NCBI GenBank assembly: GCA_049973735.1
Contig: JBMFJL010000024.1
Coordinates: 1-8,290, forward strand
Length of the DNA: 8,290 nt
Direction: 5' to 3'
Source of the DNA: Nanopusillaceae archaeon
Lineage (GTDB): Archaea > Nanobdellota > Nanobdellia > Nanobdellales > Nanobdellaceae
Positions 1 through 8,290 of this stretch are shown here, piece by piece. The notes beneath the pieces are model-generated. The model saw only the letters and a program-made list of their open reading frames with translations. It was not told the origin of the DNA and ran no database searches. The translations under genes and the position numbers were made by a program. How positions within the stretch are numbered: position 1 is the first letter of the stretch; every line of letters begins with the position of its first letter.

Positions 1-495
1 CCAAGCAGAATAATAAACTTTTTGATTAAAATTATTAATTAAATTATCAATTTCATTATATGTTTTAATAAAAGTTTCTTCATCCAGTTTTATTCCAAAA
101 ACATTTTCAAATATTTTTGGAATTTCGTTAATCAAATCAAATTTATAATATTTATGTTTCTCATAATCAATTGCTAAATAATTGCAATTCAAAACTTTTT
201 TTGTAACTATTGCCATTTTTGATGTACCAAAATTTATAACTTTTCTTATATTCAATCCATGTTTTTCTAACTCTTTATTTATTTTAGCTATTGAATATTT
301 TTTTGATTCGCTAATTATTTCATCAATATCTAAATTTGTTAAACTTTTAACAACAAATTTTAAAGATTCAAAATCTAGATCATAAAAATCATCGCTATTT
401 AAATTTAATACTAAAAAATCTTTTTTACATCTAAACATAAACACAAGTTCATTATAATAAGAAAATTTGATGGGAGCCAAAAAGGAAAGCCTCAT
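1..495 (-). CDS. Hypothetical protein, N-terminal 165 codons only (runs off the left edge); paralog of the 2337..2912 product
   Basis: Absent from the supplied track because there is no in-window stop. The reverse frame is open from ATG 495-493 to base 1: MRLSFLAPIKFSYYNELVFMFRCKKDFLVLNLNSDDFYDLDFESLKF...NNFNQKVYYSAW. The ATG overlaps the TGA of the upstream gene 492..686 (ATGA). The N-terminus, the LxLNLN[ST][DN][DE]F motif and the N[FY]N-x7-W motif align with 2337..2912. The + ORF 182..385 is its antisense shadow. Confidence 0.7.
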   Translation of the reverse strand, partial: MRLSFLAPIKFSYYNELVFMFRCKKDFLVLNLNSDDFYDLDFESLKFVVKSLTNLDIDEIISESKKYSIAKINKELEKHGLNIRKVINFGTSKMAIVTKKVLNCNYLAIDYEKHKYYKFDLINEIPKIFENVFGIKLDEETFIKTYNEIDNLINNFNQKVYYSAW

Positions 496-686
496 TTTAA
501 TCTAAATAGCTTTGCTTTTCCTACCTCTCTATATTCTACAATTCCTTTCCCTAATAAATAATGCAAATATTTTGTTACTGTAATTCTGCTAACTTCTACT
601 TCATCTGCTATTTCTTTTATTGTTTTTTCTCCATTTTTTAAGCATTTTATTATCTTATTTATCACTTTCTCTTCTTCTTCCTCCAT
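492..686 (-). CDS. Small winged helix-turn-helix DNA-binding protein (ArsR/TrmB/MarR-like), 64 aa
   Basis: The segment KTIKEIADEVEVSRITVTKYLHYLLGKGIVEYREVGKAKLFRL shows the canonical helix-turn-recognition helix followed by a beta-hairpin wing (G-x-V/I-x-x-x-x-x-G-K/R-x-x-x-F/Y-x-L). It has an acidic N-terminal tail. A BRE/TATA sits upstream at 704-722. The gene is translationally coupled to the downstream gene. Confidence 0.8.
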   Translation of the reverse strand: MEEEEEKVINKIIKCLKNGEKTIKEIADEVEVSRITVTKYLHYLLGKGIVEYREVGKAKLFRLK

Positions 687-703
687 AAATATATTAATAA
701 ATA

Positions 704-722
704 TTATTTAAAAGATTTTCGA
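704..722 (-). promoter_or_regulatory. Archaeal BRE/TATA promoter for 492..686
   Basis: The minus strand reads TCGAAAATCTTTTAAATAAT. The BRE-like G is 34 nt from the ATG at 686. No SD is present, which implies a very short or absent leader. Confidence 0.5.
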
Positions 723-733
723 TAAAAATTATA

Positions 734-750
734 GTAAGCCTTAAATATAT
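734..750 (+). promoter_or_regulatory. Archaeal TATA promoter for the 767..2372 operon
   Basis: GTAAGCCTTAAATATAT, with 18 nt between the TATA and the ATG at 767. The BRE is weaker than at the other promoters (no GAAA). Confidence 0.45.
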
Positions 751-766
751 TTTTTATTAATATATT

Positions 767-961
767 ATGAATAAGGAAGAATTTATCCAATATATGGAAG
801 AGCTAAAAAAGAAATATAAAATAGTTCCATTATCTATTATTTATTCCGAATTAGAAAGAAAAGGGGTTGAAAGGGGGAAAATAAAATATTGGTTAAAAAC
901 ATTAGATGGAACTTTTTTTAAAGTTGAAAATTGGAATGTGATATTTATAGAAAATGGTTGA
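767..961 (+). CDS. Hypothetical 64-aa protein, possibly a small wHTH-like DNA binder
   Basis: ATG-initiated ORF with composition like its neighbours. The helix / helix (SIIYSELERKGVERGKIKYWLKTL) / beta-hairpin (TFFKVENWNVIF) layout is compatible with a winged helix, but this is weak. It overlaps the next gene by 8 nt (operon). Confidence 0.6.
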   Translation: MNKEEFIQYMEELKKKYKIVPLSIIYSELERKGVERGKIKYWLKTLDGTFFKVENWNVIFIENG

Positions 962-1793
962 AATAAAGTTTAATATAAAGTTTAATAAACAATTTATAAT
1001 TCCTACATTATTTGGATTAGTTGTATTGGCTTTCCTTTTTTGGTATATTTCAAACGCTTCTATAAAAGAAAAAATAGAAAAATATATTAGAAATGAGCTT
1101 GGAATATTTTGTGAAAATTTTGATTTTAAAGATATTGGCAATATATATGAAGTTAAGGGATGTAACTTTATTCTTTATTTTACAAAAGATGGTAAATATT
1201 TTATTAGGGGTTATCCTGAGGAAATAAAATTCTTAGAAAAAAGAGATGTACCAAAAATAATAGTATTTACAATGCCATTTTGCCCAGCATGTAATATATT
1301 TTTTCCAAATTTAGTTAGGCTATATGATGAATTTAAAGATTATGTAAAATTTGAAATTTATCCAAGCGAAATTCAAATTCATGGGGATCTAGAAGTGCTT
1401 GAAGCATTAAGAGAATATTGCATGATAAATAAAAGCATTGATAATTATTTTAAACATTTAAAATGTTATATAAATTTAAATTCATCTGAATGTTTTAATG
1501 AAAAAGAACCAGATAAAGTTTTTAATTGTTTATTTGAGAAATATGAGAAATGTTATGAAAAAAATGATGAAATAGAAAATTGTGTTAAAGAATTAAATAG
1601 ATCTGTTGAATATTTACCTTTTAGAGCTAAACTTAATTTTGTTTCAGAAATAAACTCGAAATATAATATTTTTGCAACACCAACAATTATAATTAATGAT
1701 AAAAAAGTAAATTTGGATATTAGAGATTATAATCAAATCAAAAAAACTGTTTGTAATGCATTTTTAAACCCTCCAAATATTTGTAAATTTTAA
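954..1793 (+). CDS. Membrane-anchored thioredoxin-fold thiol:disulfide oxidoreductase (DsbA/BdbD-like), 279 aa
   Basis: N-terminal TM helix (IIPTLFGLVVLAFLFWYIS). A beta-strand plus CxxC active site follows (IIVFTMPF-CPAC-N, nt 1281-1292). Next comes a long helical insertion, then the cis-Pro loop A-T-P-T-IIIN (nt 1674-1685), typical of DsbA-family proteins (GTPTFxxNG). There are 12 Cys in total, 10 of them outside the CxxC. Confidence 0.85.
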   Translation: MVEIKFNIKFNKQFIIPTLFGLVVLAFLFWYISNASIKEKIEKYIRNELGIFCENFDFKDIGNIYEVKGCNFILYFTKDGKYFIRGYPEEIKFLEKRDVPKIIVFTMPFCPACNIFFPNLVRLYDEFKDYVKFEIYPSEIQIHGDLEVLEALREYCMINKSIDNYFKHLKCYINLNSSECFNEKEPDKVFNCLFEKYEKCYEKNDEIENCVKELNRSVEYLPFRAKLNFVSEINSKYNIFATPTIIINDKKVNLDIRDYNQIKKTVCNAFLNPPNICKF

Positions 1794-1806
1794 TTTACAT
1801 ATTTAA

Positions 1807-1830
1807 GCGAAAAGGACTTAAATATTTCGG
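1807..1830 (+). promoter_or_regulatory. BRE/TATA promoter for 1843..2372, quasi-palindromic
   Basis: GCGAAAAGGACTTAAATATTTCGG. The BRE G at 1809 is 34 nt from ATG 1843. The reverse complement (CCGAAATATTTAAGTCC) also reads as BRE+TATA, so a divergent antisense start is possible. Confidence 0.5.
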
Positions 1831-1842
1831 TAATATATTATT

Positions 1843-2082
1843 ATGGTTGCTATGAATAAAAAAATACTATACTTAATAGCTGCAATAGTGCTAGTATCAG
1901 TAGCAGCAGGAGCAGTATATAAAATATATAAAACTCATACAATAACAGTAAGTGTTCAGGAACCTTTAAATATAACAGCATATGAAACTATAGATGTTAG
2001 TGGATATCCAGGAGAAGAAGTTGAAGCAAAAGTATTAGACATTGAAAATAAAGCACCAGAACTGGTTTTACAAAAGAATTGA
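1843..2082 (+). CDS. Small N-terminally membrane-anchored or secreted protein, 79 aa
   Basis: MVAMNKKILYLIAAIVLVSVAAGAVYKIY is a signal-anchor or signal peptide, followed by a beta-rich acidic ectodomain. An alternative start lies at ATG 1852 (MNKK...). Promoter spacing favours 1843. The TGA stop overlaps the TTG of the next ORF. Confidence 0.6.
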   Translation: MVAMNKKILYLIAAIVLVSVAAGAVYKIYKTHTITVSVQEPLNITAYETIDVSGYPGEEVEAKVLDIENKAPELVLQKN

Positions 2083-2372
2083 AAAAACTGTATAATATAG
2101 TTGGTACACAAAATAAAACAATAAAAGAATTAGAGCAAATAATAAGCAATTATTCTTTAGAAATTAGCAAATTGGAAGAGGAAAATAAAAAATTAAAAGC
2201 AAGTAATGAAGAATTGTTAAATGCATATTTAAATGCAACAAAAGAAAGTAAGGAAAAAGATGAATTAATAACAAAAATAATAATTGTTTGTTTAACAATA
2301 ATTGCTATTTCAACAGCATTGAATATATATCTTTACTTAAGGAAGTTTAAGATATCTTCTGTTCCAAGCTAA
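2079..2372 (+). CDS. Tail-anchored coiled-coil membrane protein, 97 aa, TTG start
   Basis: The only available start is TTG 2079, inside a TTGA start/stop overlap. The heptad-like segment IKELEQIISNYSLEISKLEEENKKLKASNEELLNAYLNATKESKEKDE is followed by a C-terminal TM helix (IIIVCLTIIAISTALNIYLYL). Composition is genuinely protein-like. The start codon is uncertain. Confidence 0.55.
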   Translation: MKKLYNIVGTQNKTIKELEQIISNYSLEISKLEEENKKLKASNEELLNAYLNATKESKEKDELITKIIIVCLTIIAISTALNIYLYLRKFKISSVPS

Positions 2373-2912
2373 TATAGTTTTTGGTGAAAAACCAAAAAGC
2401 TCTGCTATTTCTTCTACTTTTTTTGCACTACATTTCCATAAACAGCATGCCAAAATTCCATTATAATTTTCATTTTTATATCCATACTTTTCTTCCAATT
2501 TTTTAAACATTTTTTCAAAACCTTCAAAATCAATATAAATGTTTAAAACATTTGAAATATATTTTGCAACATCTAATATATTATCTGTTCTTAAAAACTT
2601 TTTCAAATAAAAATCAAAAAACAAATATTTTTTTTCTATTAAACTTTTCCTAATTATAAATGTATCATTAGCATCCCTTTTAAAAACTAAAATTCCAAAT
2701 TTTTTTAATGTTTTATTTTTTCTTTGTATTTTTTCATCAACTTCAATATTTATATCTTTAAGAAATTTTTTAATGTTTTCAATATCTCCAAATTCAAATT
2801 CGTTTGTATTTAAATTTAATGCTAAATAATCATAATTAAAAGTAAATAAAAATCCCTCTTCATTTTTACTTCCATAAAAACTTGTTTTTCCAAACAATTT
2901 AAACCTTAACAT
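2337..2912 (-). CDS. Hypothetical 191-aa protein with a C-terminal helix-turn-helix; paralog of 1..495
   Basis: The C-terminus SAKKVEEIAELFGFSPKTILAWNRRY matches the common HTH pattern (xxEIAxxxGxSxxTxxxWxxRY) seen in IS630/resolvase/terminase-small type HTHs. The N-terminal ~150 aa align with the 1..495 product. Its start is overlapped by the upstream gene (14 nt). Confidence 0.75.
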   Translation of the reverse strand: MLRFKLFGKTSFYGSKNEEGFLFTFNYDYLALNLNTNEFEFGDIENIKKFLKDINIEVDEKIQRKNKTLKKFGILVFKRDANDTFIIRKSLIEKKYLFFDFYLKKFLRTDNILDVAKYISNVLNIYIDFEGFEKMFKKLEEKYGYKNENYNGILACCLWKCSAKKVEEIAELFGFSPKTILAWNRRYLKLP

Positions 2913-3123
2913 TTATTTTTTCTCCCCACTTTAATACAATAATTCTGTAATCGCTATCATTTTCAAATACTAAAATGCAAAATTTTGATCTTTTATTTAA
3001 AAAATCTGCAAGCGCATAAGAATCTTTTATTTCAAAATTGTTTAAGTGTGCTATTTCAACAATTTTATTTAATGTTTTATCTAAATTTTTCTCATTAACA
3101 ACAATTTCTTTTATTTTTTTCAT
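2899..3123 (-). CDS. Hypothetical 74-aa protein (start trimmed to the first ATG)
   Basis: The track ORF 2899..3183 begins at a GTG and translates the promoter region (VIKFFFQFQFLYLSFSIII). The ATG at 3123-3121 gives MKKIKEIVVNEKNL..., with a TATA centred about 23 nt upstream. Helix then beta-hairpin (FCILVFENDSDYRIIVLKW). The layout weakly resembles 6976..7209. Confidence 0.6.
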   Translation of the reverse strand: MKKIKEIVVNEKNLDKTLNKIVEIAHLNNFEIKDSYALADFLNKRSKFCILVFENDSDYRIIVLKWGEKINVKV

Positions 3124-3132
3124 AATTATTAT

Positions 3133-3150
3133 AGAAAAGCTTAAATATAA
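3133..3150. promoter_or_regulatory. TATA element shared or bidirectional between 2899..3123 (-) and the region upstream of 3229 (+)
   Basis: The + strand reads AGAAAAGCTTAAATATAA, a consensus BRE+TATA in the + orientation. The same TATA is at the right distance (about 23 nt) for the minus-strand ATG at 3123, but there is no good BRE on that side. Confidence 0.35.
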
Positions 3151-3194
3151 AAATTGGAATTGGAAGAAGAATTTGATAACCACAAAAAAATTAT

Positions 3195-3213
3195 GGAAAA
3201 AGCATATAAATAG
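3195..3213 (+). promoter_or_regulatory. BRE/TATA promoter for 3229..3573
   Basis: GGAAAAAGCATATAAATAG. The BRE G at 3196 is 33 nt from ATG 3229. No SD is present. Confidence 0.5.
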
Positions 3214-3228
3214 GTTTTACTTAAATTT

Positions 3229-3573
3229 ATGGTCGTTAAAAGAATATACAGACCAAGAGGATTGCATAAAGTAGGATCTTTAGTAGGGGAAGAAAGAGCA
3301 CCATTGTTTAAGCAGCCTAGTAGAGTATATGTTAGTCCAGATATTACGCCAGGGCTATTCTTAGCAGTAAAAGCTAAAAAACATGTAACAGTTTATAAAA
3401 GAAAGAGAGAAGCTCCTGGAGCAGGTCATCCAGTTGTTAAGGCAATATTTAAAGAGTGTGCAATGCAAACAAAAGGTATTGCTAACAGAGACGAAAGAGT
3501 TAAAAAGATTAGAGAATGTATATTAGCGGCACTTGACAAGAGATTTTCAAAAGTAGCTGAAGTAAAAGCATAA
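3229..3573 (+). CDS. Strongly basic 114-aa protein, candidate nucleic-acid-binding / chromatin or virion-core protein
   Basis: Hand count: 16 K + 11 R against 3 D + 7 E, net about +17. It is Pro/Gly/Ala/Arg-containing, unlike its neighbours. Two 60-nt lines (3241-3300, 3301-3360) count 38% and 42% G+C, against 22% for line 2641-2700. It is monocistronic, with its own promoter and terminator. I do not recognise the family. Confidence 0.8.
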   Translation: MVVKRIYRPRGLHKVGSLVGEERAPLFKQPSRVYVSPDITPGLFLAVKAKKHVTVYKRKREAPGAGHPVVKAIFKECAMQTKGIANRDERVKKIRECILAALDKRFSKVAEVKA

Positions 3574-3581
3574 TAGTTGTA

Positions 3582-3628
3582 AGTAAATAAAAGTAAAAAA
3601 CTAAGAAAATTTGTTTACTCTTTTTTTT
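3582..3628 (+). terminator. Hairpin plus T8 terminator for 3229..3573
   Basis: AGTAAATAAA (3582-3591) pairs with TTTGTTTACT (3610-3619) over 10 bp including one U-G wobble, with an 18-nt loop. C then T8 follows (3621-3628). Oligo-T tracts are the established archaeal termination signal. Confidence 0.45.
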
Positions 3629-3629
3629 A

Positions 3630-3980
3630 TTATTTATTTAAAGTAAATAAATAGTATGAATTATTACTTGTTTTAATTAACAAACCATTTTCTAAATTTA
3701 TTTTTGCATCTTTTTTTTCTCCAAAAAACAAAATTACAATTTTTCCAATTTGAACATTATTCTCATTTGTATGATATATTTTTCTCCCATTTACAACTTC
3801 ACTCTTCATTATTTTCATTTTTTCCAACCTTTTTAACCTACTTCTAAAAAAATTATCTATTATTTTAATATCATTTGAATTGAATAAATTTTTATATTTT
3901 TGTGCTTCAGAATAACTTGTTATTTTTTCTTTTAAACCATCTAATATTAACAATATATCAAACGTATCAATCCTTTCCAT
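3630..3980 (-). CDS. Putative wHTH DNA-binding protein with a C-terminal beta-rich domain, 116 aa
   Basis: The N-terminal part (FDILLILDGLKEKITSYSEA ... FRSRLKRLEKMKIMKSEVVNGRKIYHT) matches the recognition-helix plus wing pattern (LKRLEKxGLIxxxxxGRKxxYxLT) of MarR/PadR-like winged helices. The C-terminal 40 aa are beta-rich. Confidence 0.65.
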   Translation of the reverse strand: MERIDTFDILLILDGLKEKITSYSEAQKYKNLFNSNDIKIIDNFFRSRLKRLEKMKIMKSEVVNGRKIYHTNENNVQIGKIVILFFGEKKDAKINLENGLLIKTSNNSYYLFTLNK

Positions 3981-4006
3981 ATTTAAATATAAATTTAAAT
4001 AATATT
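3981..4006. promoter_or_regulatory. 26-bp bidirectional control region made of two ATTTAAAT palindromes
   Basis: ATTTAAATATAAATTTAAATAATATT is the entire spacer between ATG 3980 (-) and ATG 4007 (+). The self-complementary octamer ATTTAAAT occurs at 3981-3988 and 3993-4000. No GAAA-type BRE is present on either side. Confidence 0.45.
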
Positions 4007-4363
4007 ATGGTAATATTAGTGAAAAGGACAGCAGAAGAATTTAAAAAAGAATTTGCCGAATTTTGTGAATCAAGAAATGGAGTATTTAAAGATTTTGGGA
4101 ATAGTTTTAGATGTCAAGCAAAAGAATTCGAAATATTTGGAAGGGAATTTGAAGGTAAATATGATATTAAATTTTCATTTTTAGCAGAAAAACCAATTTC
4201 AATTTATATGATAAATAAAGATTTTATTGGTGTAAGAACTATAAGAACTGGGTTTGAAATATTGGGAGCAAGTGAAGGTGAAATGGTATTTGTAAAAGTT
4301 TATAAGCCTGGAGAAAAAATTGAGGCAGTTGAAATAGAGTCAAGAACATTTTCTCCAGAATAA
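4007..4363 (+). CDS. Hypothetical 118-aa protein (start trimmed to ATG 4007)
   Basis: The first 35 codons of track ORF 3902..4363 are antisense to 3630..3980 and hydrophobic junk. From ATG 4007 the sequence is protein-like: MVILVKRTAEEFKKEFAEFCESRNG... It is beta-rich in the C-terminal half. No family recognised. Confidence 0.7.
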   Translation: MVILVKRTAEEFKKEFAEFCESRNGVFKDFGNSFRCQAKEFEIFGREFEGKYDIKFSFLAEKPISIYMINKDFIGVRTIRTGFEILGASEGEMVFVKVYKPGEKIEAVEIESRTFSPE

Positions 4364-5143
4364 TTAAAATTTTAGCATTTTCTTTATTTTTTCTAGCTCT
4401 TTCTTTAATTCTTCAATTTCTTCCTTTCTTGTTGCTGCTTTTTCTAGCTCTTCCATTCTACTTTCAATTTCTTCAACTTTAAATGAAAAATATCTAATAT
4501 CATATGCACTTTTCATTATTTCTCTTCTTAATGTTTCAATTTCTTCTCTAACTTTTTTAATCTCTTCGGCCAAGAGTTCTTCCATTGGATACTCTATTAC
4601 AACTTCTTTAACAGGTTTTAAACCTAAAAATATTTCAATTTCATCTAAAGACCTCAAATTTCTAATTAAATAACTAAGTTCTGGAAACGAAAAATATAAA
4701 CATCCTGTTTCAATATTTTGTTCTAACTTTATTTTTCCAATCTGAGCCATTTCTATTATATCATTCATTAGAATGTTAATAATTGGGTGCAAAACATATT
4801 CTTTGTGGGTTTTTAAATATTCTTCATAATTTGGATATACAAATGCTAAAGGATGTGGAATTTCTCTAACTCTAATTGCAACAAAATATGTATATATACA
4901 TTTTTCTCCAACTTCAACATTCCATTTTAATATTTCTTCAATTTTTTTGTATTTTCCTTTGGATGCATAATATGCTAGATCATCTAAAAAATTTTCAATT
5001 TTATAAAGTTTAATATCTATTCTGTCTTTATCTATTGTTGTTGTTGCCTTATAAGAAGCGTCATAATGTAAAGATTTAAAAGCTCTTACAACTTTTTCAC
5101 TTTCTTCTTTATCAAATGTTGGAAACAAAGGATACCAAGGCAT
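4364..5143 (-). CDS. Hypothetical 259-aa protein with a C-terminal coiled coil
   Basis: Long ORF with coherent composition. The last ~70 aa (EELLAEEIKKVREEIETLRREI...EELEKAATRKEEIEELKKELEKIKKMLKF) are heptad-like. No catalytic motif recognised. No consensus promoter lies immediately upstream, so it may be co-transcribed with 5286..5801. Confidence 0.8.
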   Translation of the reverse strand: MPWYPLFPTFDKEESEKVVRAFKSLHYDASYKATTTIDKDRIDIKLYKIENFLDDLAYYASKGKYKKIEEILKWNVEVGEKCIYTYFVAIRVREIPHPLAFVYPNYEEYLKTHKEYVLHPIINILMNDIIEMAQIGKIKLEQNIETGCLYFSFPELSYLIRNLRSLDEIEIFLGLKPVKEVVIEYPMEELLAEEIKKVREEIETLRREIMKSAYDIRYFSFKVEEIESRMEELEKAATRKEEIEELKKELEKIKKMLKF

Positions 5144-5155
5144 AATTATATTATT

Positions 5156-5293
5156 ATGGAAATAGAAAAAGAAAAACTAAAAAAGCTTTTAGAAGATTTT
5201 TTTGACATACTTTTCTTTTTTGGTTTAATAGCAGTAATAATCATGTTTTTATCTCTATTATTTAAACTATTAGGTATACCTATCATTAAATAA
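5156..5293 (+). CDS. Possible 45-aa single-pass membrane protein (below the track cutoff)
   Basis: Hand translation gives MEIEKEKLKKLLEDFFDILFFFGLIAVIIMFLSLLFKLLGIPIIK, a charged N-terminal helix plus one TM helix. It fills an otherwise unexplained 142-nt gap. Against it: there is no consensus BRE/TATA at the right distance, and its 3' end overlaps 5286..5801 by 8 nt. Confidence 0.35.
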   Translation: MEIEKEKLKKLLEDFFDILFFFGLIAVIIMFLSLLFKLLGIPIIK

Positions 5294-5801
5294 AGCAAGA
5301 AATTATTTTATCAATCATTTCATCAACATTGTTTTTTGTTATTTCTATTATTTCATATTTTTCACCATTTATATATAATAGTTTTGCACTTTCAGTTATT
5401 ATTAAATAGTTTTGGTCATTCGCAGAAATTATTTTTGTTGCTTCTTGTATTTTTGTGAATCTAAAATTTTCCGCTTTTATTTTATGTATTTCTTGTTGTA
5501 TTTCATTTATCAACTTTCCTATATTGTTAATAGTTTTGTATAGGAAGTAAAAATTATTTTCATGCGAATAATTATCATATAAATAAACTATAGTTTCTCT
5601 TGCATCATTTAATTTTCTTATCGCTTCTCTTAACATTTTTATCTCTTTTTTATTATATCTTAATTGTCTTAAAATTTTATCTAATTTTTCATCATCATAT
5701 ATATTTAAAACTTCTAAAGCATTTTTTGCGTTTTTTTCTTTAAGTTTCTGAACTATTAAATTTATTGTCTCTTTCAACTCTTTTACTTTTTCATCATTCA
5801 T
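5286..5801 (-). CDS. Hypothetical 171-aa protein, helical N-terminal part and alpha/beta C-terminal part
   Basis: ATG-initiated ORF with a BRE/TATA upstream (5815-5831) and composition like its neighbours. No motif recognised. Confidence 0.75.
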   Translation of the reverse strand: MNDEKVKELKETINLIVQKLKEKNAKNALEVLNIYDDEKLDKILRQLRYNKKEIKMLREAIRKLNDARETIVYLYDNYSHENNFYFLYKTINNIGKLINEIQQEIHKIKAENFRFTKIQEATKIISANDQNYLIITESAKLLYINGEKYEIIEITKNNVDEMIDKIISCFI

Positions 5802-5814
5802 AATATATATAAGA

Positions 5815-5831
5815 TATATAAATATTTTTCG
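5815..5831 (-). promoter_or_regulatory. BRE/TATA promoter for 5286..5801
   Basis: The minus strand reads CGAAAAATATTTATATA. The BRE G is 29 nt from the ATG at 5801. It lies in the 39-nt gap after the stop of 5841..6347. Confidence 0.5.
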
Positions 5832-5840
5832 TTAATATGC

Positions 5841-6347
5841 TTAATGTCCATATCTTAATAGTTCATATTCTTCAACCTCTTCATCGCTAAATTCTAATTC
5901 ATAACCTTTTAAACTATTTATCCAAAACGGGCTTTCTATCATATCTCTAGCATCCCAATACAGTTCATTTAATAATAAGTCTAATTCTACAGCTTTTAAT
6001 TCGTTTTCCCACTCATCATATAAATGTTGTATATAGCTAACCAAATCATAACCTTTTCCTCCGTAGTGTATTGGTAATAAACTGTTTATAAATTCTCCAA
6101 GTGGAATTGTTTTTTCATAACTTATTTCCATCCAAAACGGGTGCGCACCTTTCCCAATTCTTACCACACTAGCCGGATATTGTCCAGTTTTTATCATCCT
6201 TATTAAAACATAATTCGGTTTTCTAATAAACCTTCCGGTATCAATATCTCTTAACATCACATACCTTACTCTTTCTGTTTCATATAGCTCTATTCTTACT
6301 CTTAATTCATCGATCACTGTATACCAAACCAATCTTCTAACTACCAT
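5841..6347 (-). CDS. Hypothetical 168-aa protein with an internal PFW...[HR]YG repeat
   Basis: G+C-richer than average (line 6121-6180 counts 47%). The start overlaps the stop of 6341..6727 by 7 nt. PFW occurs at residues 70-72 and 140-142, exactly 70 aa apart, each followed 21-22 aa later by [HR]-Y-G. No Walker or other catalytic motif recognised. Confidence 0.8.
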   Translation of the reverse strand: MVVRRLVWYTVIDELRVRIELYETERVRYVMLRDIDTGRFIRKPNYVLIRMIKTGQYPASVVRIGKGAHPFWMEISYEKTIPLGEFINSLLPIHYGGKGYDLVSYIQHLYDEWENELKAVELDLLLNELYWDARDMIESPFWINSLKGYELEFSDEEVEEYELLRYGH

Positions 6348-6727
6348 TCGTTTAATATTTCTTCAAGGTCTTTTCTTATCTTTTCCTTGCTTGCAACTTT
6401 ATTATTTTCAAATTTTGCACCGAATAAGTAATTCATCTTTTCAAACCTTTCTCCAATCTTTTTGTATCTAACATAATTTAAACACTCTCTTTTCCAATCA
6501 GAGCCAAGTAATAATTGTAAAATTATTATTTCTAATGGATGAGTAATATTTTCTGCTTTACATTTTATGTGAAATCCATTTTTTGTTTCATACACTTCAA
6601 AATCCCTTATTTTAATGTTTGCATCTTTTTCCAATATTTCTTTTACTGTTTTTATTCTTTCAATAACTTCAGCAATATTTTTATCATCCACATCTATTTT
6701 AATAACTTTTTCAACCATAAAATTCAT
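6341..6727 (-). CDS. 128-aa RRM-like protein with DxD / GxH / sD motifs (candidate minimal AEP/prim-pol-like catalytic module; speculative)
   Basis: VIKI-D12-V-D14-D (nt 6683-6694), ETKNGF-H53-IKC (6569-6571) and LLLGS-D77-W (6497-6499). The predicted order is beta-alpha-beta-beta-alpha. The ORF overlaps the upstream Zn-ribbon gene by 17 nt, or 8 nt if the start is M4 at 6718. The ORF call is solid; the functional call is low confidence. Confidence 0.75.
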   Translation of the reverse strand: MNFMVEKVIKIDVDDKNIAEVIERIKTVKEILEKDANIKIRDFEVYETKNGFHIKCKAENITHPLEIIILQLLLGSDWKRECLNYVRYKKIGERFEKMNYLFGAKFENNKVASKEKIRKDLEEILNEW

Positions 6728-6938
6728 ATTTTATTTCAAATTCTGAGCGAATTTTTTCATAACATTCATCACAAAGGAACATTTCAACTTTTTTAACAAT
6801 CTTCTTCCCTTCATAAAATTTAAAAACAAACTTTTTTAATTTATGTTTTTTTGCTAACTCTTCTATACTTTCTTTTAAATTATTTGTTCTTAATAATTCT
6901 TTTTTACAAACTCCGCAAGCAATTATTAACTCATTCAT
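6711..6938 (-). CDS. Small 4-Cys zinc-ribbon protein, 75 aa
   Basis: CGVC (residues 8-11) and CDEC (56-59) flank a Lys-rich helical/beta segment. A BRE/TATA sits at 6958-6975. Confidence 0.7.
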   Translation of the reverse strand: MNELIIACGVCKKELLRTNNLKESIEELAKKHKLKKFVFKFYEGKKIVKKVEMFLCDECYEKIRSEFEIKYEFYG

Positions 6939-6957
6939 AAATTATAAATACACAAGT

Positions 6958-6975
6958 TATATAAATGCTTTTCGG
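6958..6975 (-). promoter_or_regulatory. BRE/TATA promoter for the 6938-to-5841 operon
   Basis: The minus strand reads CCGAAAAGCATTTATATA and abuts the stop codon of 6976..7209. The BRE G is 35 nt from the ATG at 6938. Confidence 0.55.
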
Positions 6976-7209
6976 TTATAATTTTGTTACTATTAAATAT
7001 ACTTTTTTATCATATCTCTCTATGTCGAAAGCAAAAATTAAAGTATACATTTTACTTTCTAAATAATTTAATAATTTTTTAAATTCTACAACGTTTAAAT
7101 TACTAATATCGAAAACAATATAATCAACTTTTCTTATATCATTTTCAATTTTTTCAATTATTTCATTTGCTTTCATTTGTATATTAATATTCTTTTCTAA
7201 TTTTTTCAT
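6976..7209 (-). CDS. Hypothetical 77-aa protein
   Basis: ATG ORF with an N-terminal helix (KANEIIEKIENDIRK), then alpha/beta (VVEFKKLLNYLESKMYTLIFAFDIERYDKKVYLIV). No oligo-T follows its stop, so read-through into the next gene is likely. Confidence 0.65.
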   Translation of the reverse strand: MKKLEKNINIQMKANEIIEKIENDIRKVDYIVFDISNLNVVEFKKLLNYLESKMYTLIFAFDIERYDKKVYLIVTKL

Positions 7210-7232
7210 TTCTATCTATAACTATTTATAAA

Positions 7233-7254
7233 ATATATATATATATCTTTTCTG
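7233..7254 (-). promoter_or_regulatory. BRE plus (AT)7 TATA promoter for 6976..7209
   Basis: The minus strand reads CAGAAAAG followed by (AT)7 (7233-7246), then 23 nt to the ATG at 7209. Confidence 0.45.
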
Positions 7255-7261
7255 TATCAGT

Positions 7262-7288
7262 AAAAATAAAAAAAAGGAAAAAGAAAGG
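7262..7288 (-). terminator. Oligo-T terminator after 7289..7585
   Basis: The minus strand reads CCTTTCTTTTTCCTTTTTTTTATTTTT starting right after the stop (T5 and T8 runs). Confidence 0.4.
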
Positions 7289-7585
7289 TTATTGAACTTG
7301 TAATATTTCCTTTAGCTCCTGCAAAAACTTTTCTGCTTCTTTTTTGTAATCTTCATATTCGTCTTTAAATAGCGCTTTTTCTGGATCTCTAATATCGCTA
7401 GTTATTTTGGGCTCCACCAAATACTTGTCTGCAACGCTTGCATTTATTATTATTTTTACTTTTCTTCCTGTTCCAAGTTCAACTTCTTTTTCTGCCCTAA
7501 CGTCGTAGTACCACCATCCGTCGTATTTTATGTTGTATATTTTTATTACTGCTTGTATTTGTGTAGTTTTTGTTATCTCTTCCAT
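7289..7585 (-). CDS. Hypothetical 98-aa protein, beta-rich N-terminal domain and acidic helical tail
   Basis: Monocistronic, with its own BRE/TATA and oligo-T terminator. It contains IYNIKYDGWWYYDVRAEKEVELGTGRKVKIIINASV (beta strands) then DPEKALFKDEYEDYKKEAEKFLQELKEIL (helix). No family recognised. Confidence 0.8.
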   Translation of the reverse strand: MEEITKTTQIQAVIKIYNIKYDGWWYYDVRAEKEVELGTGRKVKIIINASVADKYLVEPKITSDIRDPEKALFKDEYEDYKKEAEKFLQELKEILQVQ

Positions 7586-7606
7586 AATATATTAATATAT
7601 ATAAGG

Positions 7607-7624
7607 TATATAAAAGCCTTTCGG
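7607..7624 (-). promoter_or_regulatory. BRE/TATA promoter for 7289..7585
   Basis: The minus strand reads CCGAAAGGCTTTTATATA. The BRE G is 37 nt from the ATG at 7585. The 11 nt before the ATG (ATTAATATATT) are identical to those before ATG 767. Confidence 0.55.
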
Positions 7625-7649
7625 TACAACTAAAAAATAATAAAAATAA

Positions 7650-7690
7650 TATTTATATTAACATGTATTATAATATTAATAATATAAATA
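7650..7690. repeat. 11-bp inverted repeat with a 19-nt spacer inside a long non-coding spacer
   Basis: TATTTATATTA (7650-7660) and TAATATAAATA (7680-7690) are perfect reverse complements. The spacer contains the short palindromes ACATGT, TTATAA and AATATT. The arms are AT-only, so statistical weight is modest. Confidence 0.3.
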
Positions 7691-7765
7691 CGTATATATG
7701 CATTTTTCAAAAGTTGCATTAATTCATATATAAATACATATTATATATAATAATAGTAAAATAAT

Positions 7766-7782
7766 AAAAAAAGGGAAAAAGA
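7766..7782 (-). terminator. Oligo-T terminator after 7783..8091
   Basis: The minus strand reads TCTTTTTCCCTTTTTTT immediately after the stop. The motif is almost the same as at 7262-7288. Confidence 0.4.
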
Positions 7783-8091
7783 TTATAAAACTTTATACTT
7801 CTTATAATACTCCTGTCTGCAGCTTTCGCAGATTACTTCTTTGAGATATAGCATATTACCGACTTTTTCGATTACTGCATACCCGTCGCTTATTATTCCT
7901 TCTAATTTTTTTAAGTCTTCTTCTAACTGTGGGTTAAATACGGGAGCGTTGCAACAATCACAAACTATTGCTTCCTTCTCTATGATTTCATCATCAATTA
8001 TTAGCGGCTTAAGGATATATTTAGCTATTCTTTTAGCTGTTTCTGTTTCTATTACTTTGTTGTTTTTAAAAACTTTAACCAACATTATCAT
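7783..8091 (-). CDS. Small Cys-cluster (putative zinc-binding) protein, 102 aa
   Basis: CDCC (residues 44-47) and CESC (88-91). The C-terminal knuckle VICESCRQEYYKKY resembles FLCDECYEKIRSEF of 6711..6938. The gene is monocistronic with its own promoter and terminator. Confidence 0.8.
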   Translation of the reverse strand: MIMLVKVFKNNKVIETETAKRIAKYILKPLIIDDEIIEKEAIVCDCCNAPVFNPQLEEDLKKLEGIISDGYAVIEKVGNMLYLKEVICESCRQEYYKKYKVL

Positions 8092-8111
8092 AATATTATA
8101 AATATTTAAGT

Positions 8112-8128
8112 TATATAAATCCTTTTCT
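8112..8128 (-). promoter_or_regulatory. BRE/TATA promoter for 7783..8091
   Basis: The minus strand reads AGAAAAGGATTTATATA. The BRE G is 36 nt from the ATG at 8091. A second GATTTATATA copy lies 26 nt further upstream (8138-8147). Confidence 0.5.
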
Positions 8129-8214
8129 ATTCTAAAGTATATAAATCTAGCACTGATCTACTAGAATAATAAACATTAATATTTAATTTCTTTATTTCCT
8201 ATTTCTATTAATTG

Positions 8215-8290
8215 TTATTTTTTATCTTCGTTGTTTCTCAAAGATGTTAAAATTTGTTGTTTATGCTCTTTCTTGTTTTTTGTTTGTGCC
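8215..8290 (-). CDS. Possible 3' end of a gene entering from the right edge
   Basis: This is the longest open reverse frame from the edge: ...AQTKNKKEHKQQILTSLRNNEDKK, with its stop at 8217-8215. Only 24 codons are visible. A competing + ORF starts at 8244. Confidence 0.25.
   Translation of the reverse strand, partial: AQTKNKKEHKQQILTSLRNNEDKK

What the first reader, a model, noticed from the sequence alone, without database searches (positions are those of the whole stretch)
5841..7254. Zn ribbon + 128-aa DxD/GxH/sD protein + 168-aa repeat protein operon: candidate minimal or split primase-polymerase (replication) module
Four co-oriented minus-strand genes (6976..7209, 6711..6938, 6341..6727, 5841..6347) are chained by a promoter abutting a stop codon and by 17-nt and 7-nt start/stop overlaps, so they are expressed together. 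The 128-aa product has a predicted beta-alpha-beta-beta-alpha (RRM/palm-like) order. It carries IKI-D12-V-D14-D, ETKNGF-H53-IKC and LLLGS-D77-W. This gives DxD, then 39 aa to a His at the start of a strand, then 24 aa to small-residue+Asp.

That is the order and approximate spacing of motifs I-III of the archaeo-eukaryotic primase / prim-pol superfamily. From memory, pRN1 ORF904 uses D111, E113, H145 and D171. A 4-Cys zinc ribbon, the usual primase partner module, is encoded immediately upstream and is translationally coupled.

However, 128 aa is much shorter than any characterised AEP core, and the N-terminal (alpha-beta)2 module is missing. This is therefore either a previously undescribed minimal or multi-subunit primase of a mobile element, or a coincidental motif pattern. 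No helicase or P-loop gene is present in the window.
Basis: partly seen in the sequence, partly recalled or inferred. Interest (0 to 1): 0.7.

Follow-up and report, generated by a model that had tools for sequence, protein, structure and literature searches.

The report
Miniature primase-like enzyme, archaeal mobile element
A 128-residue protein in a small gene-dense contig from a nanoarchaeal genome bin belongs to a large, unnamed family that looks like the catalytic half of the archaeal/eukaryotic DNA primase stripped to its bare core; if it is active it would be the smallest enzyme of this kind and a candidate for the missing replication enzyme of several archaeal viruses.

Summary
The sequence observation holds. 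A repeated archaeal BRE/TATA element shows the operon has three genes (75, 128 and 168 aa). The 77-aa gene is a separate unit.

The 128-aa protein is not a chance motif pattern. It belongs to an unannotated family of about 411 cluster representatives, mostly stand-alone proteins of 105-150 aa. In this family D12, D14, H53 and D77 are invariant, as are Q71, S76, R80, E81, N84, R87, N99 and K105.

AlphaFold gives a confident RRM-like fold (pLDDT 96). A profile-profile comparison with 13 Prim-Pol primases aligns motif I through motif II in register (hhalign probability 85%, P 6e-6; 0 of 120 block-shuffled controls reach the score). The best PDB fold hits are LigD polymerase domains, but weakly. 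Relatives include the "conserved lipothrixviral protein".

The N-terminal AEP module is absent. The equivalence of D77 to motif III is unresolved. The Zn ribbon is not a conserved partner, and the 168-aa protein remains an orphan.

Verdict: a new, minimal variant of the AEP superfamily, probably a replication-initiating nucleotidyltransferase. Activity is untested.

The parts
6958..6973 (-). BRE/TATA-like archaeal promoter element (GAAAAGCATTTATATA) heading the three-gene operon. The TATA box lies about 20 nt upstream of the ATG at 6938, so the mRNA is probably leaderless or nearly so.
   Evidence: 4 exact copies in the window, all minus strand and all just upstream of start codons; 6 matches with one mismatch against 1.13 expected, 0 of 200 shuffles reach 6; repeat families D3 and D6; sequence.
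6711..6938 (-). 75-aa protein with C8xxC11...C56xxC59, a putative 4-Cys zinc ribbon. First gene of the operon.
   Evidence: Only sub-threshold family hits: YgiT-type Zn finger TIGR03831 at E 0.0027 (17.9 bits against a cutoff of 20.2) and DUF2120 at E 0.0021. It is not a conserved neighbour of the 128-aa family.
6341..6727 (-). 128-aa stand-alone RRM-like protein (125 aa if translation starts at M4, position 6718). It is a minimal AEP / Prim-Pol-like putative nucleotidyltransferase and the core of the finding.
   Evidence: family of 411 representatives with an invariant polar constellation. AF2 pLDDT 96; hhalign against Prim-Pol, probability 85%; top PDB fold hits are the LigD polymerase domain; weak PriS hit; lipothrixviral homologs.
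6686..6694 (-). Codons for D12-V13-D14, which correspond to AEP motif I (hhhDhD) at the end of strand beta1.
   Evidence: codons read directly. D12 and D14 present in 148 of 148 aligned sequences; aligned to the LDFD/LDFE motif of Prim-Pol.
6569..6586 (-). Codons for T48-K-N-G51-F-H53, which correspond to AEP motif II (sxH, here TxxGxH) in the beta2-beta3 turn and the start of beta3.
   Evidence: T48 in 143/152, G51 in 151/152, H53 in 152/152; aligned to Prim-Pol T..GG.H(h)Y.
6467..6505 (-). Codons for G75-S76-D77-W-K-R80-E81-C-L-N84-Y-V-R87. This is an invariant acidic and basic patch at the junction of helices alpha2 and alpha2'. D77 is the candidate third carboxylate.
   Evidence: D77 in 152/152, S76 in 148, R80 in 146, E81 in 145, N84 in 141, R87 in 141; position in the model. 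Equivalence to motif III is unresolved.
5841..6347 (-). 168-aa protein, translationally coupled by a 7-nt overlap. An orphan accessory protein. Read from the sequence alone (no prediction was run on it), its N-terminal half looks beta-rich and its C-terminal half helical.
   Evidence: no family, PDB-sequence or defence-system hit; a 31%-identical fragment follows the 51%-identical homolog in L001, so the 128/168 gene pair is conserved at that distance; not detectably related to the 166-aa family A6 that neighbours other family members.
6976..7209 (-). 77-aa protein, possibly a small winged-helix DNA-binding protein. It is a separate transcription unit directly upstream.
   Evidence: weak SlyA/MarR-type hit at E 0.057. 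In L004 and L016 a 78-79-aa gene overlaps the 3' end of the family gene (sequence). Reading it as a winged helix is my inference from its sequence and was not tested.
5815..5830 (-). The next BRE/TATA-like element (GAAAAATATTTATATA). It marks the downstream boundary of the operon and the start of the 171-aa gene's unit.
   Evidence: (D6).

Best explanation
The 128-aa protein is a catalytically competent, radically reduced member of the archaeo-eukaryotic primase (Prim-Pol) superfamily. It keeps only the RRM-like module that carries the active site and has lost, or never had, the N-terminal (alpha-beta)2 module.

Proposed mechanism (inferred):
- D12 and D14 at the end of beta1, plus a third carboxylate, bind two divalent metals. 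The third carboxylate is most likely the invariant D77. Alternatives are E81, E115 or the position-66 Asp/Glu.
- T48 and H53 (motif II), together with basic residues R80, R87 and K105, hold the triphosphate of the incoming nucleotide.
- The enzyme synthesises or extends a short primer on the element's DNA.
- The contig encodes no helicase and no polymerase. The host replisome would therefore take over from the primer, as it does for helicase-less primase replicons such as ColE2.
- Template and initiating-nucleotide binding is done in other AEPs by a Zn motif, a helix-bundle domain or PriL. Here it would be supplied in trans by the co-transcribed 75-aa Zn ribbon and/or the 168-aa protein.

Shown: family membership, invariant residues, the fold, homology to Prim-Pol over motifs I-II, and the operon structure.
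Inferred: metal and NTP roles, priming activity, the partner roles, and a function in replication.
For: (1) Conservation. An exhaustive HMMER search finds 411 representatives at E<=1e-3, and nearly all are stand-alone proteins of 100-160 aa. D12, D14, H53, Q71 and D77 are invariant. T48, G51, S76, R80, E81, N84, R87, N99, L101, F102 and K105 are conserved at 90% or more, although mean identity to the query is only about 30%.

(2) Fold. The AF2 model has pLDDT 96 and pTM 0.87 with order b-a-b-b-a-a-b-b-a, which is RRM/ferredoxin-like. By RRM topology all conserved polar residues lie at one pole of the sheet. This last point is inference.

(3) Profile comparison. hhalign of the family (262 sequences) against 13 diverse Prim-Pol domains (pRN1, pRN2, pHEN7, pDL10, pORA1, pIT3, pTI1 and six bacterial plasmid proteins) gives probability 85%, P 6.3e-6 and score 46.2. 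IKLDiD aligns on hhLDFD and TkkGyHVYI on T.gGGxHhYF. The reversed control scores 13.3. Shuffling 8-column blocks gives 22.5 +/- 3.1 with a maximum of 33.1, and 0 of 120 reach the real score. With only 5 pRN1-type sequences the result was already P 8.9e-4 with 0 of 300 controls reaching it.

(4) Structure search. Foldseek against 350,542 PDB chains ranks the M. tuberculosis LigD polymerase domain (an AEP) at places 1-5 (E 0.04-0.1, probability 0.4-0.7). Another AEP NHEJ polymerase is at place 19. An unrelated neighbour-family model run the same way gave only noise (probability <=0.03).

(5) Weak family hits. NCBIfam PriS at E 0.0012 over residues 10-93. One family member hits Pfam AEP-TOTE at E 0.033.

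(6) Literature. According to the review PMC10345425, all three AEP motifs lie within the RRM-like module, so an RRM-only AEP can in principle carry the whole active site.

(7) Genomic context. Family genes sit in gene-dense virus- or plasmid-like contigs next to PD-(D/E)xK nucleases, an SF2 helicase, a HerA/DUF87 ATPase and AAA+-lid proteins. One member is fused to MerR-HTH plus LAGLIDADG DNA-binding modules. One is fused to an N-terminal Cys cluster (P0061).

(8) Viral relatives. Homologs are the 'conserved lipothrixviral protein' (AFV3 ORF267a, SSFV3 ORF14, AFV1 ORF144, AFV2 ORF116).

(9) Precedent. The pRN1 prim/pol domain needs an extra helix-bundle domain for priming (PMC2965215). This is a precedent for accessory modules.
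Against: - No curated model (Pfam, NCBIfam, PHROG function, PADLOC) reaches threshold for any of 89 members.
- A PDB sequence-profile search finds no AEP.
- The Foldseek matches to AEPs are not significant on their own (E >= 0.04, TM about 0.3, rmsd above 10 A).
- The confident profile alignment covers only 48 columns, from motif I to motif II.
- After motif II the family has two helices where Prim-Pol has the motif III beta-hairpin. D77 is therefore not in the canonical 'hydrophobic strand then Asp' context.
- The (alpha-beta)2 module that forms the other wall of the AEP active-site cleft is absent. No separate protein could be shown to replace it.
- I could not inspect model coordinates, so clustering of D12, D14, H53 and D77 is inferred from topology only.
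- The Zn ribbon is not conserved next to family members.
- The contig is not shown to be a complete replicon.
Confidence: 0.6

Rival explanations
1. The family is AEP-derived and enzymatically active, but its job is not priming replication. It could be a repair or gap-filling polymerase or a terminal transferase. It could also be a nucleotidyltransferase used in virus-host conflict, for example to make or modify a signalling nucleotide or to nucleotidylate a protein or DNA end.
For: AEPs are functionally promiscuous, covering NHEJ, translesion synthesis, CRISPR adaptation and conflict systems (reviews). One member weakly hits the conflict-system AEP-TOTE model. The best fold hits are the NHEJ LigD polymerase domain rather than a replicative primase. 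Frequent neighbours are PD-(D/E)xK nucleases, which fit recombination or repair as well as replication. No origin, helicase or polymerase was identified in the window.
Against: The gene is a conserved core gene of lipothrixviruses (annotations). It also recurs in very small elements where accessory functions are less likely to persist. There is no PADLOC hit. Fusion to sequence-specific DNA-binding modules suits an origin-directed enzyme.
Confidence: 0.17
2. The protein is a metal-dependent nuclease or nicking initiator built on the same RRM scaffold. It would be a relative of HUH rolling-circle Rep proteins, like the 119-aa rudiviral Rep, that starts replication by cutting DNA rather than by making a primer.
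For: AEPs and HUH Rep nucleases share the RRM-like fold and are considered each other's closest relatives (review). The lipothrixviral homologs read G-R/E-H-V-H at this position, which is a literal HUH. The protein size of about 125 aa is typical of minimal Rep domains. Related filamentous and rod-shaped archaeal viruses (rudiviruses) use a small Rep; this is from my own knowledge and was not checked here.
Against: The second His is not conserved in the family: position 55 is Y in 97, R in 20 and K in 11 of 152. No Tyr column is invariant, the best being Y55 at 64% and Y85 at 39%, so the obligatory nucleophile is missing. The invariant DxD at the end of beta1 is an AEP feature rather than a HUH feature (the HUH side of that comparison is from memory). 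hhalign aligns the region to Prim-Pol at probability 85%. No HUH Rep or relaxase structure appears among the top 50 PDB fold hits, apart from an AAV OBD at rank 45 with probability 0.08.
Confidence: 0.1
3. The motif pattern is coincidental, or the domain is a non-catalytic DNA/RNA-binding RRM-like protein.
For: Ferredoxin-like folds are extremely common. No curated family is matched. The PDB fold hits are individually insignificant.
Against: Five residues are invariant and eleven more are at least 90% conserved. They include three Asp, one Glu, one His, two Arg and one Lys, across about 150 sequences that share only about 30% identity. That is the signature of an active site, not of a binding surface. 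The order and spacing of two motifs beat 120 of 120 block-shuffled controls.
Confidence: 0.03

Closest known systems
Prim-Pol domain of plasmid replication proteins (pRN1 ORF904 N-terminal domain, pIT3, pORA1; Pfam PF09250-type 'bifunctional DNA primase/polymerase')
   Same: Motif I (hhhDhD/E) at the end of a strand, then one helix, one strand, and motif II T/s-x-x-G-x-H-h-Y-h at the start of the next strand. These align in register at hhalign probability 85%. Both are encoded by small archaeal extrachromosomal elements. In both, priming is expected to need an accessory module (the pRN1 helix-bundle domain; PMC2965215).
   Different: The protein is about 125 aa against about 200-250 aa. There is no N-terminal (alpha-beta)2 module. 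There is no in-chain Zn stem and no fused helicase. After motif II come two helices carrying Q71 and GSDxxRExxNxxR instead of the motif III hairpin hDhRGxGGhhhhPPS. It does not reach any Pfam or NCBIfam threshold.
LigD polymerase domain (bacterial/archaeal NHEJ AEP; PDB 2IRX, 2IRY, 3PKY, 5DMU)
   Same: It is the best structural match in the PDB, at ranks 1-5 and 19. The DxD-to-His spacing of about 39 residues is similar; this spacing is recalled from memory and was not tested.
   Different: The match is weak (E 0.04-0.1, TM 0.3). LigD-Pol is about 290 aa with both AEP modules and works in repair with Ku and ligase. No such partners are present here.
Archaeal/eukaryotic PriS with PriL (and PriX)
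   Same: There is a weak PriS profile hit over residues 10-93 (E 0.0012). The idea of a catalytic subunit that needs separate non-catalytic subunits for initiation is shared.
   Different: PriS is more than 300 aa with a Zn-knuckle insertion and both modules. The hit is far below the curated cutoff (18 bits against 326). No PriL-like Fe-S or helical subunit was identified.
Helicase-less primase replicons (ColE2 Rep, RSF1010 RepB')
   Same: These are a functional analogy: a small element encodes only a dedicated AEP-type primase that makes a primer at its origin and hands over to host enzymes. They are listed as Prim-Pol superfamily members in PMC10345425.
   Different: Those proteins are 300 aa or more with PriCT or DNA-binding domains in cis and are bacterial. 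No sequence comparison was made here.
HUH rolling-circle Rep nucleases (including the small rudiviral Rep)
   Same: An RRM-like scaffold of similar size, a His on the equivalent strand, and a literal HVH in the lipothrixviral branch.
   Different: There is no conserved second His and no conserved catalytic Tyr. The invariant DxD is present instead.

Membership tests
AEP / Prim-Pol superfamily | Motif I: hhhDhD/E at the C-terminal end of a beta-strand | tested here: met
   The sequence is V-I-K-I-D12-V-D14. D12 and D14 are present in 148/148 aligned homologs. They lie at the end of strand E6-13. They align to LDFD/LDFE of 13 Prim-Pols.
AEP / Prim-Pol superfamily | Motif II: sxH (small residue, any residue, His), the nucleotide-binding motif | tested here: met
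   The motif reads T48-x-x-G51-F-H53, with G51 in 151/152 and H53 in 152/152. It lies at the beta2-beta3 turn and the start of E52-59. It aligns in register to Prim-Pol GGxH.
AEP / Prim-Pol superfamily | Motif III: hD/E, the third metal-binding carboxylate, on a strand | tested here: inconclusive
   D77 is invariant but follows G75-S76 at the N-cap of helix 78-98 rather than a hydrophobic strand. The forced extension of the hhalign alignment has zero confidence. It puts family LLGS on Prim-Pol hhPPS and puts the motif III Asp near position 64-66, where E/D66 is acidic in 73% of sequences. E81 and E115 are further candidates.
AEP / Prim-Pol superfamily | C-terminal RRM-like module carrying the three motifs | tested here: met
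   AF2 model with pLDDT 96 and order b1-a1-b2-b3-a2(a2')-b4(b5)-a3. Strand pairing was not inspected because no coordinates were available.
AEP / Prim-Pol superfamily | N-terminal (alpha-beta)2 module packed against the RRM-like module | tested here: not met
   Motif I starts 5-10 residues from the N-terminus in the window protein and in most of about 150 homologs. No such module is present in the model. N-terminal extensions in longer homologs (AFV3 ORF267a, P0004, P0051) are not conserved.
AEP / Prim-Pol superfamily | Statistically supported sequence or structure similarity to established members | tested here: met
   hhalign probability 85%, P 6.3e-6, with 0/120 block-shuffled and reversed controls reaching the score. 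It covers only 48 columns. HMM-to-sequence scans and Foldseek are sub-threshold.
AEP / Prim-Pol superfamily | The catalytic residues form one pocket in 3D | not testable with these tools
AEP / Prim-Pol superfamily | Template-dependent primer synthesis or polymerase activity | not testable with these tools
   This requires biochemistry.
Pfam PF09250 (Prim-Pol) / PF01896 (DNA_primase_S) / NCBIfam PriS | Score at or above the curated gathering threshold | tested here: not met
   No member of 89 reaches any AEP model's threshold. The best hits are PriS at 18 bits against a cutoff of 326 and AEP-TOTE at E 0.033 in one member.
HUH rolling-circle Rep / relaxase | His-hydrophobic-His motif | tested here: not met
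   H53 is invariant, but position 55 is Y/R/K in most members. HVH occurs only in the lipothrixviral branch.
HUH rolling-circle Rep / relaxase | Invariant catalytic Tyr | tested here: not met
   No invariant Tyr column exists. The maximum is Y55 at 64%.

The most novel reading that the evidence does not exclude
A free-standing RRM-like module of about 125 aa is a functional primase-polymerase and the smallest known. It works either alone or as the catalytic subunit of a multi-protein primase assembled from tiny separately encoded parts (a Zn ribbon and a helical accessory protein). It would then be the long-missing replication-initiation enzyme of lipothrixviruses and of many DPANN, Thermoproteota and other archaeal mini-elements. 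It could also represent a form close to the common ancestor of AEPs and HUH Rep nucleases.
Probability: 0.35. Interest if true: 0.85.

Novelty: new variant of a known kind. Interest (0 to 1): 0.7.

Why it matters
All characterised AEPs have a two-module catalytic core of at least 200 aa. A widespread family that keeps only the RRM-like half, with motifs I and II intact, would redefine the minimal architecture needed for primer synthesis. This family has 411 clusters at 50% identity, no Pfam or NCBIfam model, and only an 'unknown function' PHROG.

It would also give a testable candidate for how lipothrixviruses and many tiny archaeal elements start replication. My literature searches turned up no paper assigning them a primase or polymerase. 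It would also inform the proposed evolutionary link between primases and rolling-circle nucleases.

In practical terms, a thermostable 15-kDa primase-polymerase would be an attractive enzymological and biotechnological object.

Tried and rejected
- Whole-window megablast against plasmids and phages found nothing. There are no tRNAs and no Rfam hits.
- Pfam, PHROGs, NCBIfam and PADLOC scans of all operon proteins and of 89 family members gave only sub-threshold hits.
- PDB sequence searches with the single protein and with the family profile found no AEP. The best hits were poxvirus F9-type entry proteins at E 0.008, judged spurious.
- hhalign of the family against the single pRN1 sequence was uninformative. 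It became informative only with real Prim-Pol alignments.
- I tested whether the 168-aa protein is homologous to the 166-aa family A6 (invariant EQxRxDHPxAxE, SRxGxxF) that sits next to family genes in L004, L007 and L016. BLASTP gave E 0.06 and hhalign gave probability 0.4%, so this was rejected.
- The A6 model (pLDDT 74.5) had no PDB fold match. This was a dead end, though useful as a negative control.
- An internal repeat in the 168-aa protein is not significant.
- Circularity or terminal repeats of the contig are not supported.
- Genome-collection scans found none with the SDWKRE pattern and 4 short MAG contigs with the SDY/FKRE pattern. A scan of viral contigs found one locus. A scan with pRN1 found none.
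- Literature searches for a lipothrixviral or minimal AEP found no description of this family. Iyer et al. 2005 is not held.
Full report
**What the window is.** The window has about 23% G+C and is packed with short ORFs. An exact-sequence look-up shows it is an 8,290-bp contig of a MAG labelled Nanopusillaceae archaeon (Nanoarchaeota). NCBI calls the central protein ACP5G1_02235 (125 aa, starting at M4) and its downstream neighbour ACP5G1_02230. A contig from an independent run (L015, 8,962 bp) is 96-98% identical and collinear apart from a 535-bp indel. Neither contig has terminal overlaps or inverted repeats, so a complete circular or linear replicon is not demonstrated. Nothing similar is found in the plasmid or phage collections at the DNA level. 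There are no tRNAs and no Rfam matches, and no Walker A motif in any frame.

**Checking the observation.** The four ORFs, the 17-nt and 7-nt overlaps, the CxxC...CxxC pattern and the three motif strings are exactly as described. The element GAAANNNNTTTATATA occurs four times exactly, always on the minus strand just upstream of a start codon (5815-5830, 6958-6973, 7607-7622, 8112-8127). With one mismatch allowed there are 6 matches against 1.13 expected, and 0 of 200 shuffles reach 6 (D3 and D6). It looks like an archaeal BRE/TATA promoter, which is an inference from the known archaeal promoter consensus. This makes 6938..5841 a three-gene operon (75, 128 and 168 aa) bounded by promoters. The 77-aa gene is its own unit. 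The 'repeat' in the 168-aa protein is not significant.

**The 128-aa protein belongs to a large unnamed family.** A word-indexed search found only two relatives. An exhaustive HMMER search of 1.84 billion representatives found 411 at E<=1e-3 and 51 at E<=1e-10, and almost all are stand-alone proteins of 100-160 aa. In alignments of 152 and 89 sequences that share about 30% identity with the query, D12, D14, H53, Q71 and D77 are invariant. T48, G51, S76, R80, E81, N84, R87, N99, L101, F102 and K105 are conserved at 90% or more, with W98, S113 and E115 close behind. The initial three-sequence alignment misregistered D12, and the large alignment corrects this. None of 89 members reaches any Pfam or NCBIfam threshold. 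Every source name recorded for a member is 'hypothetical protein' or blank. The one PHROG hit (phrog_12608, E 3e-5) has unknown function.

**Fold.** AlphaFold2 with the 89-sequence alignment gives pLDDT 96 and pTM 0.87. The order is E6-13, H18-35, E39-47, E52-59, H64-73, H78-98, E104-107, E110-114, H119-127. This is an RRM/ferredoxin-like b-a-b-b-a-b core with a split second helix and a terminal hairpin. DxD ends beta1, and TxxGxH spans the beta2-beta3 turn and the start of beta3. G75-S76-D77 joins the two helices. By standard RRM topology all of these, plus K105 and S113/E115, lie at one pole of the sheet. That is inference, because I could not access coordinates.

**Is it an AEP?** Several lines of evidence bear on this.
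1. Fold search. Foldseek against 350,542 PDB chains puts the M. tuberculosis LigD polymerase domain, an AEP, at ranks 1-5 and the Methanocella NHEJ polymerase at rank 19. The scores are weak (E 0.04-0.1, probability 0.4-0.7, TM about 0.3). An unrelated model run the same way returned only noise (probability <=0.03).
2. Curated profiles. NCBIfam PriS hits residues 10-93 at E 0.0012, far below its cutoff. One family member hits AEP-TOTE at E 0.033.
3. Profile-profile comparison. I fetched pRN1 ORF904 and twelve other annotated 'bifunctional DNA primase/polymerase' domains from archaeal and bacterial plasmids and aligned them. I then ran hhalign against a 262-sequence family alignment. The result was probability 85%, P 6.3e-6 and score 46.2 over 48 columns. 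IKLDiD falls on hhLDFD and TkkGyHVYI on T.gGGxHhYF, with the intervening helix and strand matched.
4. Controls. The reversed template scores 13.3. In 120 shuffles of 8-column blocks, which keep the individual motifs but scramble their order and spacing, the mean is 22.5 +/- 3.1 and the maximum 33.1. The narrower 5-sequence template already gave P 8.9e-4, with 0 of 300 controls reaching the score.
5. Literature. The review PMC10345425 states that the key residues of all three AEP motifs lie within the RRM-like module. An RRM-only protein can therefore in principle hold the whole catalytic centre.

I conclude that homology to the Prim-Pol/AEP superfamily is likely (about 0.8) for the first half of the domain.

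**What does not fit.** The (alpha-beta)2 N-terminal module, a defining part of the AEP core, is absent. Extensions in longer homologs are unconserved. After motif II, Prim-Pols have a hairpin with hDhRGxGG and hhPPS. This family instead has helices carrying Q71 and GSDxxRExxNxxR. A forced extension of the alignment has no confidence and suggests LLGS~hhPPS with the motif III Asp near position 64-66. Which residue serves as the third carboxylate is therefore open, with D77, E81, E115 and E/D66 as candidates.

**Rival: a HUH-type Rep nuclease.** The scaffold and size would fit. The lipothrixviral homologs read HVH. In the family at large, however, position 55 is Y/R/K and no Tyr is invariant, while DxD is invariant. 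I give this rival about 0.1.

**Relatives and context.**
- Viral relatives. Foldseek against viral models and tblastn against archaeal virus genomes identify uncharacterised proteins of filamentous Sulfolobales viruses. These are AFV3 ORF267a, AFV1 ORF144, AFV2 ORF116, SSFV3 ORF14 and SIFV2 gp27, and several are annotated 'conserved lipothrixviral protein'. My literature searches found no paper linking these to primases.
- Other members. These lie on short, gene-dense, mostly unannotated contigs. Several are binned into Thermoprotei, Thermoplasmata or (probably wrongly) bacterial MAGs from hydrothermal sediments.
- Neighbouring genes. These include PD-(D/E)xK nucleases, an SF2 helicase, a HerA/DUF87 ATPase and AAA+-lid proteins.
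- Fusions. One member carries MerR-HTH and LAGLIDADG domains. One carries an N-terminal Cys cluster.
- Zn-binding neighbours. They recur (L003, L009) but are absent in L001, L004 and L016.
- Conserved partners. A 166-aa family (A6) is a conserved upstream partner in one subgroup, but it is not detectably related to the window's 168-aa protein and has no recognisable fold match.
- The 168-aa protein. Outside its own cluster it has one relative, a 31%-identical fragment directly downstream of the 51%-identical homolog in L001. The 128/168 gene pair is thus conserved over that distance, while the Zn ribbon is replaced there by an unrelated Cys-rich membrane protein.

**Most likely mechanism.** The operon makes a small AEP-type nucleotidyltransferase whose DxD, third carboxylate and TxxGxH centre performs two-metal nucleotidyl transfer. 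The Zn ribbon and/or the 168-aa protein plausibly supply template and initiating-nucleotide binding in trans. This is by analogy with the Zn stem and helix-bundle domain that pRN1 needs for priming (PMC2965215) and with PriL. With no helicase or polymerase gene on the contig, the element would depend on host enzymes after priming, as ColE2-type replicons do. Only the family membership, conservation, fold, partial AEP homology and operon structure are shown. The rest is inference.

**Novelty and score.** No curated model or paper that I could find describes this family. It is best filed as a new, minimal variant of a known kind (the AEP superfamily), not as a member of any existing AEP family. 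Interest is 0.7. A 125-aa AEP core lacking one of the two canonical modules, present in hundreds of archaeal elements and in a whole virus family with no known replication enzyme, would surprise specialists and is directly testable.

Noticed in passing
window 1-8290; L015: The window is the 8,290-bp contig of a Nanopusillaceae archaeon MAG (protein MGC9079535.1). A 96-98% identical 8,962-bp contig from another sequencing run (SRR6344961) ends at almost the same position on one side. It carries a 535-bp insertion relative to window position ~2060, where the window has two short TM/coiled-coil ORFs and L015 has 189-aa and 161-aa genes.
   Followed up: partly
window 5815-5830, 6958-6973, 7607-7622, 8112-8127 (minus strand): A highly stereotyped promoter-like element, (C)GAAA-N4-TTTATATA followed by CTT.T.TAT.TA and then ATG about 20 nt downstream, precedes at least four minus-strand genes. 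This suggests leaderless transcripts under common regulation.
   Followed up: partly
L004:2604-3104, L007:8529-9029, L016:2619-3122 (family A6, P0265-P0276): A 164-169-aa protein family with invariant EQxRxDHPxAxE and SRxGxxF motifs is a conserved upstream neighbour of the mini-AEP gene in one subgroup of elements. It has no Pfam hit. Its AF2 model has pLDDT 74.5 and no PDB fold match.
   Followed up: yes
P0056 (400 aa, metagenomic): This is a natural fusion of a MerR-type HTH, a LAGLIDADG_3 domain (E 1.7e-16) and the mini-AEP domain at the C-terminus. It suggests the domain is targeted to specific DNA sites.
   Followed up: partly
L012:3416-4219 (AFV3 ORF267a); L011:3776-4360 (SSFV3 ORF14): The 'conserved lipothrixviral protein' is a member of this family. 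It has VKLDVDVD, SxSGxHVH (a literal HUH), LQxLLGDDxKR and FNVL motifs. Its N-terminal extensions are not conserved between the two viruses, and that of AFV3 ORF267a looks low-complexity.
   Followed up: partly
window 954-1793 (+): A 279-aa protein has an N-terminal TM segment and a thioredoxin/DsbA-like domain (Thioredoxin_4 E 1.6e-6, Thioredoxin_2 E 1.7e-6, both above cutoff). This is unexpected cargo for a tiny element of a nanoarchaeon.
   Followed up: no
window 3229-3573 (+): A 114-aa basic protein is encoded in a local G+C peak (about 29% against about 22% in the flanks). It has no family hit. Its origin and role are unknown.
   Followed up: no
window 2337-2912 (-) and L015:8332-8952 (the ORF running off the window's left end): The 191-aa protein (C-terminal HTH-like hits at E about 0.01-0.02) and the 206-aa protein at the contig end look like paralogs by eye. 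Both share an N-terminal 'L.LNLN.N.F...D.E..K.F.K' stretch.
   Followed up: no
window 4388-4546 (-, inside the 259-aa gene 4364-5143): Three degenerate 36-nt direct repeats (72-81% identity to the reference copy; spacing 51 and 72 nt) encode the repetitive EEIE/ELEK coiled-coil tail of the 259-aa protein.
   Followed up: no
L003:5476-6285; L033:2587-3585: Proteins bearing an AAA+ lid lie a few genes upstream of the mini-AEP gene in two unrelated contigs. The L003 protein hits AAA_lid_2 at 28.8 bits, above cutoff. The L033 protein has a weak AAA_lid_8 hit plus a C-terminal HTH. This may be a recurrent initiator or helicase-loader partner.
   Followed up: partly
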